Shown here piece after piece: positions 869 to 25,362 of a DNA stretch of 64,000 bases. The stretch lies in the NCBI RefSeq assembly GCF_056746865.1, contig NZ_CM163382.1. One strand, 5' to 3'. The translations under genes were made by a program, and so were the position numbers. The notes beneath the pieces were generated by a model. The model made no database searches, had not been told where the DNA came from, and saw only the letters and a list, made by a program, of their open reading frames with translations. Within the stretch, counting starts at the first letter, position 1. Every line of letters begins with the position of its first letter.

Positions 869-2112
869 TGCGTTTATCTCTCCCTCGCCTGAAAATGCCG
901 CGCCTGCCAGGATTCAGTATTCTGGTCTGGATCTCCACGGCGCTAAAGGGCTGGGTGATGGGCTCGCGGGAAAAAGATACCGACAGCCTGATCATGTACG
1001 ATCGCACCTTACTGTGGCTGACCTTCGGCCTCGCGGCGATTGGCTTTATCATGGTGACCTCGGCGTCAATGCCCATAGGGCAACGCTTAACCAACGATCC
1101 GTTCTTCTTCGCGAAGCGTGATGGCGTCTATCTGATCCTGGCATTCATTCTGGCGATCATTACGCTGCGTCTGCCGATGGAGTTCTGGCAACGTTACAGC
1201 GCTACGATGCTACTCGGATCAATCATCCTGTTGATGATCGTTCTGGTAGTGGGTAGCTCTGTTAAAGGGGCATCGCGTTGGATCGATCTCGGCTTGCTGC
1301 GTATCCAGCCTGCGGAGCTGACAAAACTGTCGTTGTTTTGCTATATCGCCAACTATCTGGTGCGTAAAGGCGACGAAGTACGTAATAACCTGCGCGGCTT
1401 CCTGAAACCGATGGGCGTGATTCTGGTGTTAGCAGTATTACTGCTGGCACAGCCAGACCTTGGTACGGTGGTGGTGTTGTTTGTGACTACGCTGGCGATG
1501 TTATTCCTGGCGGGAGCGAAATTGTGGCAGTTCATTGCCATTATCGGTATGGGCATTTCAGCGGTTGTGTTGCTGATCCTCGCCGAACCGTACCGTATCC
1601 GCCGTGTTACCGCATTCTGGAACCCGTGGGAAGATCCCTTTGGCAGCGGCTATCAGTTAACGCAATCGCTGATGGCGTTTGGTCGCGGCGAACTGTGGGG
1701 GCAAGGCTTAGGTAACTCCGTACAAAAACTGGAGTATCTGCCGGAAGCGCACACTGACTTTATTTTCGCCATTATCGGCGAAGAATTAGGTTATGTCGGT
1801 GTGGTACTAGCACTTTTAATGGTATTCTTCGTCGCTTTTCGTGCGATGTCGATTGGCCGTAAAGCATTAGAAATTGACCATCGTTTTTCCGGTTTTCTCG
1901 CCTGTTCCATTGGCATCTGGTTTAGCTTCCAGGCGCTAGTGAACGTAGGCGCGGCCGCGGGGATGTTACCGACCAAAGGTCTGACATTGCCGTTGATCAG
2001 TTACGGTGGTTCGAGCTTACTGATTATGTCGACAGCCATCATGATGCTGTTGCGTATTGATTATGAAACGCGTCTGGAGAAAGCACAGGCGTTTGTACGA
2101 GGTTCACGATGA
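868..2112 (+). CDS. ftsW: Peptidoglycan glycosyltransferase / lipid II flippase FtsW (SEDS family)
   Basis: ORF 865..2112; ATG at 868 gives 414 aa ([16 protein letters not shown]...); polytopic membrane protein; overlaps murD stop. Confidence 0.93.
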
Positions 2113-3176
2113 GTGGTCAAGGAAAGCGATTAATGGTGATGGCAGGCGGAACCGGTGGACATGTATTCCCGGGACTGGCGGTTGCGCACCATCTAATGGC
2201 TCAGGGTTGGCAAGTTCGCTGGCTGGGGACTGCCGACCGTATGGAAGCGGACTTAGTGCCAAAACATGGCATCGAAATTGATTTCATTCGTATCTCTGGT
2301 CTGCGTGGAAAAGGTATAAAAGCACTGATAGCTGCGCCACTGCGAATCTTCAACGCCTGGCGTCAGGCGCGGGCGATTATGAAAGCGTACAAACCTGACG
2401 TGGTGCTCGGAATGGGCGGCTACGTATCAGGTCCAGGTGGTCTGGCCGCGTGGTCGTTAGGCATTCCGGTTGTGCTTCATGAACAAAACGGTATTGCGGG
2501 CTTAACCAATAAATGGCTGGCGAAGATTGCCACCAAAGTGATGCAGGCGTTTCCAGGCGCTTTCCCTAATGCGGAAGTGGTGGGTAACCCGGTGCGTACC
2601 GATGTGCTGGCGCTGCCGTTGCCGCAGCAACGTTTGGCTGGACGTGAAGGTCCGGTTCGTGTGTTGGTAGTGGGTGGTTCCCAGGGCGCACGCATTCTTA
2701 ACCAGACAATGCCGCAGGTTGCTGCGAAACTGGGTGATTCAGTCACTATCTGGCATCAGAGCGGTAAAGGTTCGCAACAATCCGTTGAACAGGCGTATGC
2801 CGAAGCGGGGCAACCGCAGCATAAAGTGACGGAATTTATTGATGATATGGCGGCGGCGTATGCGTGGGCGGATGTCGTCGTTTGCCGCTCCGGTGCGTTA
2901 ACGGTGAGTGAAATCGCTGCGGCAGGACTACCGGCGTTGTTTGTGCCGTTTCAACATAAAGACCGCCAGCAATACTGGAATGCTCTACCGCTGGAAAAAG
3001 CGGGCGCAGCCAAAATTATCGAGCAGCCACAGCTTAGCGTGGATGCTGTCGCCAACACCCTGGCCGGGTGGTCGCGAGAAACCTTATTAACCATGGCAGA
3101 ACGCGCCCGCGCTGCATCCATTCCGGATGCCACCGAGCGAGTGGCAAATGAAGTGAGCCGGGCTGCCCGGGCGTAA
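2109..3176 (+). CDS. murG: UDP-GlcNAc:undecaprenyl-PP-MurNAc-pentapeptide GlcNAc transferase MurG
   Basis: 355-aa [32 protein letters not shown] glycosyltransferase motif; 4-nt overlap with ftsW. Confidence 0.95.
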
Positions 3177-3229
3177 TTGTAGCGATGCCTTTTGCATCGT
3201 ATGAATTTAAGAAGTTAATGGCGTAAAGA

Positions 3230-5618
<2,389 letters not shown>

Positions 5619-6450: not shown

Positions 6451-7709
6451 TCAAGGCGACGGACAGAAAACTGGTAGTAGGACTGGAGATTGGTACCGCG
6501 AAGGTTGCCGCTTTAGTAGGGGAAGTTCTGCCCGACGGTATGGTCAATATCATTGGCGTGGGCAGCTGCCCGTCGCGTGGTATGGATAAAGGCGGGGTGA
6601 ACGACCTCGAATCCGTGGTCAAGTGCGTACAACGCGCCATTGACCAGGCAGAATTGATGGCAGATTGTCAGATCTCTTCGGTATATCTGGCGCTTTCTGG
6701 TAAGCACATCAGCTGCCAGAATGAAATTGGTATGGTGCCTATTTCTGAAGAAGAAGTGACGCAAGAAGATGTGGAAAATGTCGTCCATACCGCGAAATCG
6801 GTGCGTGTGCGCGATGAGCATCGTGTGCTGCATGTGATCCCGCAAGAGTATGCGATTGACTATCAGGAAGGGATCAAGAATCCGGTAGGACTTTCGGGCG
6901 TGCGGATGCAGGCAAAAGTGCACCTGATCACATGTCACAACGATATGGCGAAAAACATCGTCAAAGCGGTTGAACGTTGTGGGCTGAAAGTTGACCAACT
7001 GATATTTGCCGGACTGGCATCAAGTTATTCGGTATTGACGGAAGATGAACGTGAACTGGGTGTCTGCGTCGTCGATATCGGTGGTGGTACAATGGATATC
7101 GCCGTTTATACCGGTGGGGCATTGCGCCACACTAAGGTAATTCCTTATGCTGGCAATGTCGTGACCAGTGATATCGCTTACGCCTTTGGCACGCCGCCAA
7201 GCGACGCCGAAGCGATTAAAGTTCGCCACGGTTGTGCGCTGGGTTCCATCGTTGGAAAAGATGAGAGCGTGGAAGTGCCGAGCGTAGGCGGTCGTCCGCC
7301 GCGGAGTCTGCAACGTCAGACCCTGGCAGAGGTGATCGAGCCGCGCTATACCGAGCTGCTCAACCTGGTCAACGAAGAGATATTGCAGTTGCAGGAAAAG
7401 CTTCGCCAACAAGGGGTTAAACATCACCTGGCGGCAGGCATTGTATTAACTGGTGGCGCAGCGCAGATCGAAGGTCTTGCAGCCTGTGCTCAGCGCGTGT
7501 TTCATACGCAAGTGCGTATCGGCGCGCCGCTGAACATTACCGGTTTAACGGATTATGCTCAGGAGCCGTATTATTCGACGGCGGTGGGATTGCTTCACTA
7601 TGGAAAAGAGTCACATCTTAACGGTGAAGCTGAAGTAGAAAAACGTGTTACAGCATCAGTTGGCTCGTGGATCAAGCGACTCAATAGTTGGCTGCGAAAA
7701 GAGTTTTAA
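6447..7709 (+). CDS. ftsA: Cell division protein FtsA (actin-like ATPase)
   Basis: 420-aa ORF, actin/HSP70-fold motifs ([14 protein letters not shown]); 4-nt overlap with ftsQ. Confidence 0.95.
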
Positions 7710-7769
7710 TTTTTATGAGGCCGACGATGATTACGGCCTCAGGCGACAGGCACAAATCGGAGAGAAACT

Positions 7770-8921
7770 ATGTTTGAACCAATGGAACTTACCAATGACG
7801 CGGTGATTAAAGTCATCGGCGTCGGCGGCGGCGGCGGTAATGCTGTTGAACACATGGTGCGCGAGCGCATTGAAGGTGTTGAATTCTTCGCGGTAAATAC
7901 CGATGCACAAGCGCTGCGTAAAACAGCGGTTGGACAGACGATTCAAATCGGTAGCGGTATCACCAAAGGACTGGGCGCAGGCGCTAATCCAGAAGTTGGC
8001 CGCAATGCGGCTGATGAGGATCGCGATGCACTGCGTGCGGCGCTGGAAGGTGCAGACATGGTCTTTATTGCTGCGGGTATGGGGGGTGGTACCGGTACAG
8101 GTGCAGCACCAGTCGTCGCTGAAGTGGCAAAAGATTTGGGTATCCTGACCGTTGCTGTCGTCACTAAGCCTTTCAACTTTGAAGGCAAGAAGCGTATGGC
8201 ATTCGCCGAGCAGGGGATCACTGAACTGTCCAAGCATGTGGACTCTCTGATCACTATCCCGAACGACAAACTGCTGAAAGTTCTGGGCCGCGGTATCTCC
8301 CTGCTGGATGCGTTTGGCGCAGCGAACGATGTACTGAAAGGCGCTGTGCAAGGTATCGCCGAACTGATTACTCGTCCGGGTTTGATGAACGTGGACTTTG
8401 CAGACGTACGCACCGTAATGTCTGAAATGGGCTACGCAATGATGGGTTCTGGCGTGGCGAGCGGTGAAGACCGTGCGGAAGAAGCTGCTGAAATGGCTAT
8501 CTCTTCTCCGCTGCTGGAAGATATCGACCTGTCTGGCGCACGCGGCGTGCTGGTTAACATCACGGCGGGCTTCGACCTGCGTCTGGATGAGTTCGAAACG
8601 GTAGGTAACACCATCCGTGCATTTGCTTCCGACAACGCGACTGTGGTTATCGGTACTTCTCTTGACCCGGATATGAATGACGAGCTGCGCGTAACTGTTG
8701 TTGCGACAGGTATCGGCATGGACAAACGTCCTGAAATCACTCTGGTGACCAATAAGCAGGTTCAGCAGCCAGTGATGGATCGCTACCAGCAGCACGGGAT
8801 GGCTCCGCTGACCCAGGAGCAGAAGCCGGTTGCTAAAGTCGTGAATGACAATGCACCGCAAACTGCGAAAGAGCCGGATTATCTGGATATCCCAGCATTC
8901 CTGCGTAAGCAAGCTGATTAA
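7770..8921 (+). CDS. ftsZ: Cell division GTPase FtsZ
   Basis: 383-aa ORF with tubulin signature GGGTGTG and conserved C-terminal peptide [11 protein letters not shown]. Confidence 0.97.
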
Positions 8922-10743: not shown

Positions 10744-13449
10744 ATGCTAATCAAATTATTAACTAAAGTTTTCGGTAGTCGTAACGATCGCACCCTGCGC
10801 CGGATGCGCAAAGTGGTCAACATCATCAATGCCATGGAACCGGAGATGGAAAAACTCTCCGACGAAGAACTGAAAGGGAAAACCGCAGAGTTTCGTGCGC
10901 GTCTGGAAAAAGGCGAAGTGCTGGAAAATCTGATCCCGGAAGCGTTCGCCGTGGTGCGTGAGGCAAGTAAGCGCGTCTTTGGTATGCGTCACTTCGACGT
11001 TCAGTTACTCGGCGGTATGGTTCTTAACGAACGCTGCATCGCCGAAATGCGTACCGGTGAAGGTAAAACCCTGACCGCAACGCTGCCTGCTTACCTGAAC
11101 GCATTAACCGGTAAGGGCGTACACGTTGTTACCGTCAACGACTACCTGGCGCAACGTGACGCCGAAAACAACCGTCCGCTGTTTGAATTCCTTGGCCTGA
11201 CTGTCGGTATCAACCTGCCGGGCATGCCAGCACCGGCGAAGCGTGAAGCTTACGCAGCTGACATCACTTACGGTACGAACAACGAATACGGCTTTGACTA
11301 CCTGCGCGATAACATGGCGTTCAGCCCTGAAGAACGTGTACAGCGTAAACTGCACTATGCGCTGGTGGACGAAGTGGACTCCATCCTGATCGATGAAGCT
11401 CGTACACCGCTGATCATTTCCGGCCCGGCAGAAGACAGCTCGGAAATGTATAAACGCGTGAATAAAATTATTCCGCACCTGATCCGTCAGGAAAAAGAAG
11501 ACTCCGAAACCTTCCAGGGCGAAGGCCACTTCTCGGTGGACGAAAAATCTCGCCAGGTGAACCTGACCGAACGTGGTCTGGTGCTGATTGAAGAACTGCT
11601 GGTGAAAGAAGGCATCATGGATGAAGGGGAGTCTCTGTACTCTCCGGCCAACATCATGCTGATGCACCACGTAACGGCGGCGCTGCGCGCTCATGCGCTG
11701 TTTACCCGAGACGTCGACTACATCGTTAAAGATGGTGAAGTTATCATCGTTGACGAACACACCGGTCGTACCATGCAGGGACGTCGTTGGTCCGATGGCC
11801 TGCATCAGGCAGTGGAAGCGAAAGAAGGTGTACAGATCCAGAACGAAAACCAGACGCTGGCGTCGATCACCTTCCAGAACTACTTCCGTCTGTATGAAAA
11901 ACTGGCGGGGATGACCGGTACTGCTGATACCGAAGCTTTCGAATTCAGCTCCATCTACAAGCTGGATACCGTCGTTGTTCCGACCAACCGTCCAATGATT
12001 CGTAAAGATCTGCCGGACCTGGTCTACATGACTGAAGCGGAAAAAATTCAGGCGATCATTGAAGATATCAAAGAACGTACTGCGAAAGGCCAGCCGGTGC
12101 TGGTGGGTACTATCTCCATCGAAAAATCGGAGCTGGTATCAAACGAACTGACCAAAGCCGGTATTAAGCACAACGTCCTGAACGCCAAATTCCACGCCAA
12201 CGAAGCGGCGATTGTTGCTCAGGCAGGTTATCCGGCTGCGGTGACTATCGCGACCAACATGGCGGGTCGTGGTACAGATATTGTGCTCGGTGGTAGCTGG
12301 CAGGCAGAAGTTGCCGCGCTGGAAAATCCGACCGCAGAGCAAATTGAAAAAATTAAAGCCGACTGGCAGGTACGTCACGATGCGGTACTGGCAGCAGGTG
12401 GCCTGCATATCATCGGTACCGAGCGTCACGAATCCCGTCGTATCGATAACCAGTTGCGCGGTCGTTCTGGTCGTCAGGGGGATGCTGGTTCTTCCCGTTT
12501 CTACCTGTCGATGGAAGATGCGCTGATGCGTATTTTTGCTTCCGACCGAGTATCCGGCATGATGCGTAAACTGGGTATGAAGCCAGGCGAAGCCATTGAA
12601 CACCCGTGGGTGACTAAAGCGATTGCCAATGCCCAGCGTAAAGTTGAAAGTCGTAACTTCGACATTCGTAAGCAACTGCTGGAATATGATGACGTGGCTA
12701 ACGATCAGCGTCGCGCCATTTACTCCCAGCGTAACGAACTGCTGGATGTCAGCGATGTGAGCGAAACCATCAACAGCATTCGTGAAGATGTGTTCAAAGC
12801 GACCATTGATGCCTACATTCCGCCACAGTCGCTGGAAGAAATGTGGGATATTCCGGGGCTGCAGGAACGTCTGAAGAACGATTTCGACCTCGATTTGCCA
12901 ATTGCCGAGTGGCTGGATAAAGAACCAGAACTGCATGAAGAGACGCTGCGTGAGCGCATTCTGGCGCAGTCCATCGAAGTGTATCAGCGTAAAGAAGAAG
13001 TGGTTGGTGCTGAGATGATGCGTCACTTCGAAAAAGGCGTCATGCTGCAAACTCTCGACTCTCTGTGGAAAGAGCACCTGGCAGCGATGGACTATCTGCG
13101 TCAGGGTATCCACCTGCGTGGCTATGCACAGAAAGATCCGAAGCAGGAATACAAACGTGAATCGTTCTCCATGTTTGCAGCGATGCTGGAGTCGTTGAAA
13201 TATGAAGTTATCAGCACGCTGAGCAAAGTTCAGGTACGTATGCCTGAAGAGGTTGAGGAGCTGGAACAACAGCGTCGTATGGAAGCCGAGCGTTTAGCGC
13301 AAATGCAGCAGCTTAGCCATCAGGATGACGGCTCTGCAGCCGCAGCTGCACTGGCGGCGCAAACCGGTGAACGCAAAGTAGGACGTAACGATCCTTGCCC
13401 GTGCGGTTCTGGTAAAAAATACAAGCAGTGCCATGGTCGCCTGCAATAA
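10744..13449 (+). CDS. secA: Preprotein translocase ATPase SecA
   Basis: 901-aa ORF; DEAD-like motor motifs and C-terminal zinc-binding [14 protein letters not shown]. Confidence 0.97.
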
Positions 13450-13468
13450 AAGCTAACAGTTGAAGTAA

Positions 13469-13496
13469 AAGGCGCAGGATTCTGCGCCTTTTTTAT
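13469..13496 (+). terminator. secA rho-independent terminator
   Basis: ggcgcaggattctgcgcc hairpin followed by tttttt. Confidence 0.7.
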
Positions 13497-13508
13497 AGGT
13501 TTAAGACA

Positions 13509-13907
13509 ATGAAAAAGCTGCAAATTGCGGTAGGTATTATTCGCAACGAGAACAATGAAATCTTTATAACCCGTCGCGCAGCAGATGCGCACATGGCGAA
13601 TAAACTGGAGTTTCCCGGCGGTAAAATTGAAATGAGCGAAACGCCGGAACAGGCGGTGGTGCGTGAACTTCAGGAAGAGGTCGGGATTACCCCACAACAT
13701 TTTTCGCTATTTGAAAAACTGGAATATGAATTCCCGGACAGGCATATAACTCTGTGGTTCTGGCTGGTCGAAAGCTGGGAAGGGGAGCCGTGGGGTAAAG
13801 AAGGGCAACCCGGTGAGTGGATGTCGCTGGTCGGTCTGATTGCCGATGATTTTCCGCCAGCCAATGAACCGGTAATTGCGAAGCTTAAGCGTGTGTATGT
13901 CGGATAG
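13509..13907 (+). CDS. mutT: 8-oxo-dGTP diphosphatase MutT (Nudix)
   Basis: 132-aa ORF with Nudix box GGKIEMSETPEQAVVRELQEEVGI. Confidence 0.9.
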   Translation: MKKLQIAVGIIRNENNEIFITRRAADAHMANKLEFPGGKIEMSETPEQAVVRELQEEVGITPQHFSLFEKLEYEFPDRHITLWFWLVESWEGEPWGKEGQPGEWMSLVGLIADDFPPANEPVIAKLKRVYVG

Positions 13908-13940
13908 GTGTTTATGCCGCATCCAACATTTGCACAAGAT

Positions 13941-13988
13941 GCCCGATGCGACGCTGGCGCGTCTTATCAGGCCAGCGTCGCATCAGAC
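13941..13988. repeat. REP-like palindromic element in mutT-yacG intergenic gap
   Basis: gcccgatgcgacgctggcgcgtcttatcaggcc resembles REP consensus; gatgcgacgct / agcgtcgcatc form an inverted repeat. Confidence 0.45.
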
Positions 13989-13994
13989 AAAATG

Positions 13995-14192
13995 TCACTG
14001 CTTTGGCTCTTCGCTCCAGTCATCGCTTTCGGAAAGATCGCCACTGCTGGGGATTCGTTTTTCTTCAGCAGCCCATTCTCCGAGGTCGATCAGCTGACAA
14101 CGTTTGGAGCAAAATGGCCGAAACGGGCTGATTTCACCCCATACCACCGTTTTCCCGCAGGTTGGGCAATTCACCGTAATAGTTTCTGACAT
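13995..14192 (-). CDS. yacG: DNA gyrase inhibitor YacG (zinc-ribbon protein)
   Basis: 65-aa [44 protein letters not shown], four-Cys zinc ribbon. Confidence 0.88.
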
Positions 14193-14201
14193 TTTTACTC
14201 C

Positions 14202-14945
14202 TTAGCAACAGGCCAATTCGAAATCCAGACGTTCCGGTACCTGTCCGTTTTCACTGTCCAGCGGCATAAAACGAATGGCAAAACGGCTCTTATGACCGGA
14301 AATTTGCGGATAAAGCTGTGAATCGAGCGACAGATTCAGGCGCAGCAAGTCGGCATCGCCACCGTTATCCTGATAAAAACCATTCAGGCTGGTTTGTTTA
14401 CGGAAGGGGGCCGACTGGCGAATTAAATCCAGCACCATGGTAAGTGCCTGGGTGAGCGGGTTCAGGCTGGCAATCCAGGTTTCTACCTGGCTGTCGCGCT
14501 GCGCCTGGGGTAGATGCAGCCAAATGTGCAATGAAGGTAAATCAAAGCTGCAACAGCCGCCTGGGATGCTCAGTCGCTGACGCACCAGAGCAATCAAACG
14601 ATCTTCACGCAGAAATTGCCCGATACGCGGCGCGGAAATTAATACGCTCCCCGCCGCTTTTAACTGCTGAATTAATGCTTCAATACGGCTCTGGTCCACG
14701 CCAGGCACGCCAATCCAGGTCTGGAGTTTACGTTGCTGCCGGTCAAGTTCTTTCAACAGCTCAGTGCGGACTTCGCCACGCTCGAAAACATCCAGTAATT
14801 CACTGACATTACGGAAGAAATGCAGTGCGCCAGCGTGGTCAGCGATGGGTAAATTAACGGTGAGTTGCTGAATCAAAAACTCAATGCGCAGCCACGTACG
14901 CATTTTTTCATTTAGTGGATGTTCAAAAAGGACCTGGGTCTGCAT
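14202..14945 (-). CDS. zapD: Cell division factor ZapD (YacF)
   Basis: 247-aa ORF immediately downstream of coaE on minus strand; start overlaps coaE stop by 1 nt. Confidence 0.88.
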
Positions 14946-25202: not shown

Positions 25203-25362
25203 TGATTTTTCTGGTAAAAATTATCCAGAAGATGTTGTAAATCAAGCGCATATAAAAGCGCGGCAACTAAACGTAGAACCTGTCTTATTGAGCTTTCCGG
25301 CGAGAGTTCAATGGGACAGGTTCCAGAAAACTCAACGTTATTAGATAGATAAGGAATAACCC

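What the first reader, a model, noticed from the sequence alone, without database searches (positions are those of the whole stretch)
13908..13994. REP-like palindromic unit between mutT and yacG
The sequence gcccgatgcgacgctggcgcgtcttatcaggcc, with an adjacent inverted copy of gatgcgacgct, matches the REP consensus. Such elements can act as mRNA stabilisers, terminators or targets for IS insertion.
Basis: partly seen in the sequence, partly recalled or inferred. Interest (0 to 1): 0.25.

Follow-up and report, generated by a model that had tools for sequence, protein, structure and literature searches.

The report
Decayed REP pair (BIME-2) between mutT and yacG
This is an ordinary, well-known kind of E. 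coli repeat: a pair of repetitive extragenic palindromes between two convergent genes, here a shrunken and mutated copy whose only unusual feature is a locus-specific extension that makes one hairpin much longer and stronger.

Summary
Window 13941-13973 is a z2-type E. coli REP, matching 34 of 37 bases of the published z2 query. An adjacent inverted half-copy creates a perfect 14-bp stem (13945-13958 with 13971-13984).

A degenerate y-type REP (13895-13928) overlaps the mutT stop codon. With an 11-nt linker and the z2 REP it forms one BIME-2 unit, which Rfam scores as naRNA4 at 60.2 bits against a cut-off of 59.5.

The same locus carries one to five such units in every Escherichia species examined. 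No such unit was found in the other enterobacterial loci inspected. The window allele is a one-unit contraction.

It has lost both GTAG/CTAC motifs, the CT cleavage sites used by the REP transposase, and the IS621 target ATCAGGCCTAC. IS621 does occupy this REP in 181 of 5,426 E. coli genomes that keep the target.

The inverted tail is derived, confined to this locus, and present in about 32% of E. coli genomes. It raises hairpin stability from about -21/-22 to -30/-38 kcal/mol and brings the stem to 5-10 nt from the yacG stop codon.

The most likely role is a passive repeat whose transcribed hairpins cap both convergent mRNAs. Kind: already known. Interest: low.

The parts
13895..13928 (+). 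Degenerate y-type REP in REP orientation (5' GTAG mutated to GTAT). It overlaps mutT codons 130-132 and the stop codon TAG at 13905-13907.
   Evidence: It aligns with the y REPs of the K-12, RM13322 and E166 alleles and of 23 other units at this locus. It covers Rfam naRNA4 model positions 1-31. It matches 28 of 35 bases of the published y query (sequence read against PMC11208160). The hairpin is weakened to -8.5/-12.1 kcal/mol, against -18.8/-19.2 for the intact RM13322 copy.
13929..13939 (.). Short head-to-head linker TTTGCACAAGA between the two REPs.
   Evidence: It is conserved (ATTTGCACA[ACT]GAT) in all 24 units of this locus across Escherichia. It differs from the linker of the Rfam naRNA4 consensus.
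13940..13977 (-). z2-type REP. The REP orientation is on the - strand. On the + strand it reads TGCCCGATGCGACGCTGGCGCGTCTTATCAGGCCAGCG.
   Evidence: blastn-short gave 33 of 34 bases, E = 1.5e-12. It matches 34 of 37 bases of the published z2 query GCCTGATGCGACGCTGGCGCGTCTTATCAGGCCTACG. The three differences are TGCC|T changed to TGCCC, and CTAC changed to CAGC (two bases). The canonical hairpin alone folds at -16.7 (+) and -19.8 (-) kcal/mol.
13971..13986 (-). Exact 16-nt inverted copy of the z2 5' arm (CTGATGCGACGCTGGC). This is the derived 'tail' abutting yacG.
   Evidence: 16 of 16 bases match. Outgroup species and 3,664 E. coli genomes have GGCCTACGTGCG(G/A)CATCAG here instead. The REP-tail junction is single-copy and found only at this locus, in 685 genomes.
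13945..13984 (.). Extended hairpin or cruciform. Perfect 14-bp arms at 13945-13958 and 13971-13984, with a 12-nt loop at 13959-13970. On the - strand RNA, G-U pairs extend the stem to 19 bp (13940-13989).
   Evidence: This is the minimum-free-energy structure on both strands, for RNA and for DNA. Energies are -30.3 (+) and -37.7 (-) kcal/mol, against -21.3/-22.2 for the ancestral allele.
13898..13973 (+). One complete y-linker-z2 BIME-2 unit as scored by Rfam RF02564 (naRNA4).
   Evidence: 60.2 bits against a gathering score of 59.5, E = 3e-10, model positions 1-77 of 77. The same model hits every unit of this locus in Escherichia species (59.7-86.4 bits) and none in the Citrobacter, Salmonella, Enterobacter or Klebsiella loci scanned.
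13995..13997 (-). yacG stop codon (TGA). It lies 5 nt from the foot of the 19-bp stem, 10 nt from the perfect 14-bp stem, and 21 nt from the canonical z2 foot.
   Evidence: ORF table, sequence and fold.

Best explanation
The interval is one unit of a BIME-2, the classical E. coli mosaic of two repetitive extragenic palindromes in opposite orientation (y REP, short linker, z2 REP). It lies where the secA-mutT and coaE-zapD-yacG transcription units converge.

A BIME-2 array was already at this site in the common ancestor of the genus Escherichia, and its first y REP supplies the mutT stop codon. In this strain the array has contracted to a single unit, by deletion between direct repeats within CGCGTCTTATCAG.

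The unit has also decayed. GTAG is now GTAT, which lengthens MutT by 3 residues. CTAC is now CAGC, TGCC|T is now TGCCC, and one base is missing from the y bulge. By published criteria it should no longer be bound or cut by the REP-associated transposase TnpA-REP (RAYT), and it is not an IS621 target.

The stump next to yacG has been rewritten to the exact complement of the z2 5' arm. This most likely happened by templated (quasipalindrome, strand-switch) mutation. It replaces the canonical bulged REP hairpin with a perfect 14-19-bp stem.

The mechanism of action is inferred, not shown. The element has no gene of its own. It is transcribed as the 3' untranslated end of both convergent mRNAs. 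Its hairpins then act as barriers to 3'-to-5' exonucleases and so define stable 3' ends. No U tract follows either stem, so any termination would be Rho-dependent or by attenuation.
For: **Identity**
- The z2 match and the inverted half-copy, checked against published REP queries.
- The Rfam naRNA4 hit above its gathering score.
- The sequence is a dispersed multi-copy family in 5,425 of 5,426 E. coli genomes.

**Array history**
- Allele alignments and the outgroup loci show 1-5 tandem units in all Escherichia species examined.
- Most other Enterobacteriaceae loci have an intergenic region of 0-60 nt. The Citrobacter, Salmonella, Enterobacter and Klebsiella loci scanned gave no naRNA4 hit.

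**Derived tail**
- Outgroups and 3,664 genomes carry CTACGTGCGGCATC.
- 733 + 1,018 genomes carry CAGCGTCGCATC.
- One allele is intermediate (L087).
- The junction is unique to this locus.
- Hairpin energies.

**Loss of transposase and IS substrates**
- Read directly from the sequence and compared with three sources. TnpA-REP of E. coli tolerates no GTAG mutation and needs the C|T site and the bulge (PMC3333891; PMC8266576). The IS621 target is ATCAGGCCTAC (PMC11208160).
- IS621 actually occupies the intact version of this REP.

**Role as a 3' cap**
- General literature only: transcribed REPs resist exonucleases and mark steady-state 3' ends of Rho-dependent transcripts (PMC6061677).
- No promoter-like site and no intrinsic terminator here.
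Against: - There are no transcript data for this locus or this allele, so the 3'-cap role is extrapolated from other REPs.
- The covariation test on 24 units is uninformative: 96.4% of cells are paired and there are no double-sided changes. Nothing shows selection on the RNA rather than on the DNA palindrome, or any selection at all.
- The y half is so degraded (-8.5 kcal/mol) that only the z2 + tail hairpin can matter.
- The templated-mutation origin of the tail is inferred from its pattern. The intermediate allele could instead be a recombinant.
- Polarity rests on 5 outgroup species.
Confidence: 0.75

Rival explanations
1. It is an inert relic. The element is selfish or neutral repeat DNA left after array contraction, with no effect on the expression of mutT or yacG or on the chromosome.
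For: - The motifs needed for mobility are lost, and the y half is degraded.
- Unit number varies freely from 1 to 5 among strains and species.
- Several independent one-unit recombinants exist: window, RM13322 and ECONIH1.
- There is no covariation signal.
Against: A hairpin of -30 to -38 kcal/mol in the 3' UTR of two mRNAs will form if transcribed, and such structures generally block exonucleases (PMC6061677). The locus has kept at least one unit in every Escherichia examined.
Confidence: 0.3
2. It is a translation-tuning hairpin. Its position close to stop codons stalls terminating ribosomes and lowers YacG and/or MutT output, as reported for REPs fewer than 16 nt from a stop codon.
For: - The mutT stop codon lies inside the y REP in all alleles.
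- The derived tail moves the stem foot from 21 nt to 5-10 nt from the yacG stop codon and nearly doubles its stability.
- The rule comes from Liang et al. 2015, as summarised in PMC12306157.
Against: - The primary paper could not be read.
- No data exist for these genes.
- The y hairpin is weak here.
- The extended stem is not a canonical REP, so the rule may not transfer.
Confidence: 0.15
3. It is a DNA-level gyrase site. As a BIME-2, it binds and is cleaved by DNA gyrase and helps manage the supercoiling generated between convergent operons.
For: Gyrase cleavage sites are over-represented in BIME-2, independently of transcription, and gyrase prefers y REPs (PMC6379681). The element sits between convergent transcription units.
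Against: - Only a subset of BIME-2, mostly multi-unit arrays, is cleaved.
- mutT and yacG do not appear in the text of the held supplementary files, one of which was cut when stored.
- This allele has a single unit, and its y REP, the preferred target, is the degraded half.
Confidence: 0.1
4. It is a gene for a nucleoid-associated non-coding RNA of the naRNA4 type, which binds HU and bridges cruciforms.
For: It scores above the Rfam RF02564 gathering cut-off on the + strand over the full model. naRNA4 is a y-linker-z2 RNA (PMC4550694).
Against: - The model hits every BIME-2 unit tested, so it detects the repeat, not a specific gene.
- The window scores near the bottom of that range (60.2 bits).
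- The linker is different.
- There is no promoter-like site.
- The MFE fold of this allele is not the naRNA4 fold, because the tail captures the z2 5' arm.
Confidence: 0.04
5. It is a purpose-built bidirectional intrinsic terminator for the convergent genes, and its resemblance to REPs is only coincidental.
For: A strong GC-rich stem lies between convergent genes. On the - strand the stem is followed by UCUUGUGC, which has 4 U in 8 bases.
Against: - The scan found no terminator-like site here.
- There is no U tract on the + strand.
- The sequence is an obvious member of a family with 13-65 or more copies per genome.
Confidence: 0.03

Closest known systems
E. coli REP sequences of types y and z2, arranged as BIME-2 (Gilson/Bachellier nomenclature, as restated in Ton-Hoang et al. 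2012, PMC3333891)
   Same: - An imperfect palindrome of about 35-37 nt, matching 34 of 37 bases (z2) and 28 of 35 bases (y) of published queries.
- The two REPs are in opposite orientation, separated by a short linker.
- High copy number in the genome.
- Location at the 3' ends of genes.
- Copy number at this locus varies among strains.
   Different: - A single unit rather than a tandem array.
- Both GTAG/CTAC tetranucleotides are mutated, and the C|T cleavage sites are lost.
- The y REP overlaps a coding sequence and has a 1-nt deletion in the bulge.
- A 16-nt inverted half-copy of z2 is fused to the z2 foot, which is not part of any REP or BIME consensus.
Rfam RF02564 naRNA4 (unit of REP325, between yjdM and yjdN; Qian et al. 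2015, PMC4550694)
   Same: The same y-linker-z2 architecture and orientation. The score is above the gathering threshold.
   Different: - A different linker and a different locus.
- One unit instead of six.
- No evidence of a discrete RNA or of HU binding.
- The predicted fold is re-registered by the tail.
IS621 (IS110 family) REP target site ATCAGGCCTAC (Durrant et al. 2024, PMC11208160)
   Same: The homologous z2 REP of this very locus carries an IS621 copy in strain 7_33_80A. The junction is found in 181 of 5,426 genomes.
   Different: The window reads ATCAGGCCAGC. The core CT and the following base are changed, so the site should not be recognised.
Quasipalindrome (template-switch) mutation hotspots in E. 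coli (from my own knowledge of Ripley's and Lovett's work; not checked here)
   Same: A clustered, multi-base change with a length change (8 nt replaced by 6 nt) that converts an imperfect inverted repeat into a perfect one.
   Different: Here it is only inferred from comparing natural alleles, and an intermediate allele exists. Ectopic conversion from another z2 REP is not excluded.

Membership tests
E. coli REP, z2 type | An imperfect palindrome of about 37 nt matching the z2 consensus | tested here: met
   33 of 34 bases, E = 1.5e-12. 34 of 37 bases against the query printed in PMC11208160.
E. coli REP, z2 type | Conserved GTAG 5' of the stem foot (CTAC on the complementary strand) | tested here: not met
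   The window has GGCCAGC where the consensus has GGCCTAC. Other alleles and the outgroups have CTAC or close variants.
E. coli REP, z2 type | [quoted passage not shown] | tested here: met
   GC at 13948-13949 lies opposite TT at 13964-13965 and is unpaired in the canonical fold. This corresponds to the AA-GC bulge described in PMC8266576.
E. coli REP (any type) | Many dispersed copies per genome | tested here: met
   A 55-nt query finds 13-65 places per genome (capped at 40 matching pieces per record) in 5,425 of 5,426 genomes.
E. coli REP, y type | A 35-nt palindrome with 5' GTAG and an AA-GC bulge | tested here: inconclusive
   It is homologous by alignment to intact y REPs of the same locus. 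Only 28 of 35 bases match the consensus, GTAG is GTAT, one A of the bulge is deleted, and the stem has a C-A mismatch. It is a remnant, not an intact y REP.
BIME-2 | [quoted passage not shown] | tested here: met
   I did not check the linker against the published S motif, because the figure is not held.
BIME-2 | Occurs as tandem multiple copies | tested here: not met
   The window has one unit. The homologous locus has 2 units in K-12, 2 in E166, 3 in SCPM-O-B-8794, and 5 each in E. albertii and Escherichia sp. E1V33.
Substrate of TnpA-REP (RAYT) | Intact GTAG, plus the bulge, plus C|T cleavage sites at TGCC|TGAT and GCC|TAC | tested here: not met
   The window has GTAT, GCTG, TGCCCGAT and GCCAGC. 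The requirements are from PMC3333891 and PMC8266576. The biochemistry itself is not testable here.
IS621 target | ATCAGGCCTAC (or ATCGGGCCTAC) | tested here: not met
   The window has ATCAGGCCAGC. There is no match to CTTATCMGGCCTAC with up to 1 mismatch anywhere in the window. Other alleles meet this feature and are occupied by IS621.
Rfam RF02564 naRNA4 | Score at or above the gathering threshold over the full model | tested here: met
   60.2 against 59.5 bits, model positions 1-77.
Rfam RF02564 naRNA4 | A discrete HU-binding RNA that condenses the nucleoid | not testable with these tools
   No promoter-like site nearby. The model hits all BIME-2 units tested.
Intrinsic (Rho-independent) terminator | A GC-rich stem followed directly by a U tract | tested here: not met
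   No site was reported in the intergenic region. The tails are AGACAAAA on the + strand and UCUUGUGC on the - strand.

The most novel reading that the evidence does not exclude
The derived tail, carried by about a third of sequenced E. coli, is not neutral. A templated quasipalindrome correction did two things at once. It removed the GTAG/CTAC motif and the IS621 target, protecting the mutT-yacG junction from further REP-transposase and IS activity. It also placed a perfect hairpin of -30 to -38 kcal/mol within 5-10 nt of the yacG stop codon. As a result, expression of the gyrase inhibitor YacG, and the 3' end of the mutT mRNA, would differ systematically between E. coli lineages.
Probability: 0.1. 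Interest if true: 0.4.

Novelty: already known. Interest (0 to 1): 0.12.

Why it matters
As a REP/BIME it adds nothing new. These elements have been catalogued in E. coli for decades, and this locus behaves as the literature describes: variable unit number, an IS621 target, and a position between convergent genes.

The allele-level details have modest value.
- They give a clean natural series: intact array, one-unit contraction, loss of motifs, then a perfected hairpin. This shows how a REP decays once it escapes its transposase.
- They show that the last residues and the stop codon of MutT are encoded by a REP.
- They offer a simple allele-swap test of the rule that a REP close to a stop codon lowers translation, applied here to yacG.

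Tried and rejected
- **Covariation.** I tested 24 BIME units of this locus from seven Escherichia lineages. 96.4% of cells are paired, with no double-sided changes and no difference from shuffles. The units are 94% identical, so the test says nothing either way.
- **Other REPs in the window.** None reached E < 0.01, and there is no second naRNA4 hit. Within-window family statistics were therefore impossible, and I used the 5,426-genome collection instead.
- **REP annotation in K-12.** The feature table for NC_000913.3 at this locus lists only the four coding sequences. I could not confirm the EcoCyc/GenBank REP name for this site.
- **Locus-specific literature.** No paper in the library holds mutT, yacG, REP and intergenic together. 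For four papers, either the held supplementary files do not mention mutT or yacG, or no supplementary files are held.
- **Papers not held.** Liang et al. 2015 and Choi et al. 2003 could not be read. I cite their conclusions second-hand from PMC12306157 and PMC11208160.
- **RAYT-mediated origin of the tail.** Rejected. The junction GGCC|AGCG has no C|T partner site on the donor side.
- **Intrinsic terminator.** Rejected.

Full report
**What is in the sequence**

The window is E. coli. Bases 13400-14300 are 100% identical to strain 118UI, and the segment is found in 5,425 of 5,426 complete E. coli genomes. The flagged interval, 13908-13994, is the whole gap between mutT (13509-13907, + strand) and yacG (13995-14192, - strand). 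The two genes converge.

The quoted 33-mer is at 13941-13973. The inverted copy of gatgcgacgct is at 13974-13984. It is 14 bp perfect (13945-13958 with 13971-13984), or 19 nt at 89% complementarity.

Folding is far from chance. The z-scores are -4.85 (+ RNA), -7.21 (- RNA) and -4.31 (DNA), and no shuffle folded as well.

**Formal REP test**

Three REP queries are printed in the methods of Durrant et al. 2024 (PMC11208160).
- Against the z2 query, the window matches 33 of 34 aligned bases (E = 1.5e-12) and 34 of 37 overall.
- A second hit, on the opposite strand at 13971-13986, is an exact 16-nt copy of the z2 5' arm.
- The 29-mer core is expected 0.00 times in shuffled windows.
It is therefore a dispersed repeat family.

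Rfam has one family built on REP units, RF02564 naRNA4. It matches 13898-13973 on the + strand at 60.2 bits, just above its gathering score of 59.5, across the full 77-position model.

The Rfam alignment and the comparison with other alleles show that the element begins inside mutT. Bases 13895-13928 (GTATGTCGGAT-AGGTGTTTATGCCGCATCCAACA) are a degraded y-type REP. An 11-nt linker follows (13929-13939), then the z2 REP.

Together these make one BIME-2 unit as defined in Ton-Hoang et al. 2012: z2 and y REPs in inverse orientation with a short linker (PMC3333891).

In K-12, RM13322 and E. albertii, the TAG of the y REP's GTAG is the mutT stop codon. In the window GTAG has become GTAT. MutT therefore runs three residues further (..KRVYVG, 132 aa, against ..KRL, 129 aa), to a TAG created by a 1-nt deletion in the REP bulge.

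**History of the locus**

I fetched the mutT-yacG region from 80 species genomes and measured the intergenic gap.
- Most Enterobacteriaceae have a gap of 0-60 nt.
- Citrobacter has its own y/z1 REPs, and Salmonella has 314-340 nt of unrelated sequence.
- Every Escherichia examined has a tandem y-linker-z2 array whose first y REP overlaps the mutT stop codon.

| Lineage | BIME-2 units |
|---|---|
| E. albertii | 5 |
| Escherichia sp. E1V33 | 5 |
| SCPM-O-B-8794 | 3 |
| K-12 | 2 |
| MOD1-EC7003 | 2 |
| E. whittamii | about 1.5 |
| Window | 1 |

The naRNA4 model hits each of these units (59.7-86.4 bits) and none outside the genus. This also shows that RF02564 is a generic BIME-2 detector rather than a marker of one gene.

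Within E. coli, several one-unit alleles are different recombinants.
- The window keeps unit 1 plus the terminal tail of an E166-like two-unit allele. The crossover lies inside the shared CGCGTCTTATCAG, and 114 bp are lost.
- RM13322 keeps unit 2.
- ECONIH1 joins a K-12-like y REP to an E166-like z2 REP.

This variation in unit number is the behaviour reported for BIME-2.

**The tail**

Next to yacG, the five outgroup species and 3,664 E. coli genomes read GGCCTACGTGCG(G/A)CATCAGAC or close variants. The window reads GGCCAGCGTCGCATCAGAC.
- This form is in 733 genomes, 302 of them with a 61-mer identical to the window's.
- A variant with the same tail is in a further 1,018 genomes, including Nissle-derived strains and strain Ecol_276.
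- The three counts sum to 5,415 of 5,426. The derived tail is therefore in about 32% of genomes.
- The 32-nt REP-tail junction contains no unique flank, yet it is single-copy and always at this locus (685 genomes). It is not a REP subfamily.

The change replaces 8 nt with 6 nt and produces the exact complement of the z2 5' arm. That pattern is the signature of templated quasipalindrome correction. This is an inference from my own knowledge of that mutation class.

One allele (FEX669, GGCCAGCGTGCGACATCAG) is intermediate, or else a recombinant.

The 3' part of the tail (CGCATCAGACA) is a direct repeat of the y REP 3' end (family D2). The ancestral tail may therefore be the stump of a further y REP.

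**Consequences that can be computed**

Hairpin energies are, given as + strand / - strand in kcal/mol.

| Element | Energy |
|---|---|
| Window, canonical z2 hairpin alone | -16.7 / -19.8 |
| Window, z2 plus tail | -30.3 / -37.7 |
| FEX669, intermediate allele | -26.9 / -30.8 |
| RM13322, ancestral one-unit allele | -21.3 / -22.2 |
| Window, y remnant | -8.5 / -12.1 |
| RM13322, intact y REP | -18.8 / -19.2 |

- In all derived alleles the predicted fold switches from the bulged REP hairpin to the perfect long stem.
- The stem foot moves from 21 nt to 5-10 nt from the yacG stop codon.
- No U tract follows either stem, and the scan finds no intrinsic terminator or promoter here.

**Loss of mobility-related motifs**

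E. coli TnpA-REP needs the GTAG, tolerates no mutation in it, needs the stem bulge, and cuts at C|T in TGCC|TGAT and GCC|TAC (PMC3333891; PMC8266576). The window has GTAT, GCTG (CAGC on the + strand), TGCCCGAT and GCCAGC, plus a shortened y bulge. Neither strand offers an intact REP or cleavage site.

The IS621 target is ATCAGGCCTAC. The window has ATCAGGCCAGC, and no near match exists anywhere in the window.

In contrast, strain 7_33_80A has IS621 inserted exactly at ATCAGGCC^TAC of this REP. The junction between the IS and the yacG flank is present in 181 genomes.

**How it most likely works**

- Shown: identity as a contracted, decayed BIME-2 unit, with its history and structure.
- Inferred: it has no gene of its own, and it is transcribed as the 3' end of both convergent mRNAs. 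The z2 + tail hairpin then blocks 3'-to-5' exonucleases and sets stable 3' ends. This is the role described for REPs on Rho-dependent transcripts (PMC6061677). I put this at roughly 50%.
- An entirely inert relic: about 30%.
- Translation tuning through proximity to the stop codons, following the Liang et al. rule as summarised in PMC12306157: about 15%.
- Gyrase binding: about 10%. BIME-2 are enriched for cleavage, but mainly at y REPs and in a subset of arrays (PMC6379681). mutT and yacG do not appear in the held supplementary text.
- A naRNA4-like HU-binding RNA: under 5%.

These roles are not mutually exclusive.

**Comparison with what is known, and verdict**

The element is a member of the E. 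coli REP family by sequence and copy number, and of BIME-2 by architecture. It fails the GTAG criterion and the tandem-copy criterion, so it is best described as a degenerate one-unit BIME-2.

Nothing here departs from known biology. The kind is already known, and interest is low (0.12). The only mildly new points are the lineage-specific perfected hairpin, the MutT C-terminus encoded by a REP, and the natural decay series.

The most novel reading not excluded is that the tail is adaptive, either as protection against insertion or through altered YacG expression. I give it a probability of about 0.1.

Noticed in passing
window 13893-13907 (mutT 3' end): The C-terminus and stop codon of MutT are encoded by the y REP. 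In K-12-type alleles the stop is the TAG of GTAG (129 aa). In the window and other D/F/B2-type alleles GTAG has become GTAT or GTAC, giving a 132-aa MutT ending in RVYVG or RVYAG.
   Followed up: partly
L090 (E. coli 7_33_80A) 2077-3377; homologous to window about 13973: An IS621 copy is inserted at ATCAGGCC^TAC of the z2 REP of this same locus. The junction between the IS621 end and the yacG flank is present in 181 of 5,426 complete genomes.
   Followed up: yes
window 13425-13494 (+): An Rfam STnc40 (Salmonella sRNA) match at 81.7 bits spans the secA stop codon and the secA-mutT spacer. The same hit appears in all 15 loci among those scanned that include this region, from Escherichia to Klebsiella.
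   Followed up: no
window 7689-7778 (+): An Rfam PssrA ('plasmid-encoded Shigella sRNA A') match at 105.5 bits lies on the chromosome. By offset from K-12 coordinates it is at the ftsA-ftsZ junction.
   Followed up: no
window 25247-25360 (-): An Rfam tp2 sRNA match at 103.4 bits. By offset it lies around the pdhR 3' end and the pdhR-aceE spacer, on the antisense strand.
   Followed up: no
L015 (QXHL01000193.1, 'Alicyclobacillaceae bacterium I2511', 424-bp contig): This contig encodes a MutT 79% identical to the E. coli protein. It is almost certainly enterobacterial contamination in that assembly.
   Followed up: no
whole window: This is the only recognisable REP/BIME in 64 kb. No other hit to the y, z1 or z2 consensus reaches E < 0.01, and there is no other naRNA4 hit. 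That is sparse for E. coli, where 584 REPs were identified in the K-12 genome.
   Followed up: partly
window 13979-13989 and 13918-13928: CGCATCAGACA next to yacG is a direct repeat (82%) of the y REP 3' end CGCATCCAACA. The ancestral tail may therefore be the stump of an additional, truncated y REP.
   Followed up: partly
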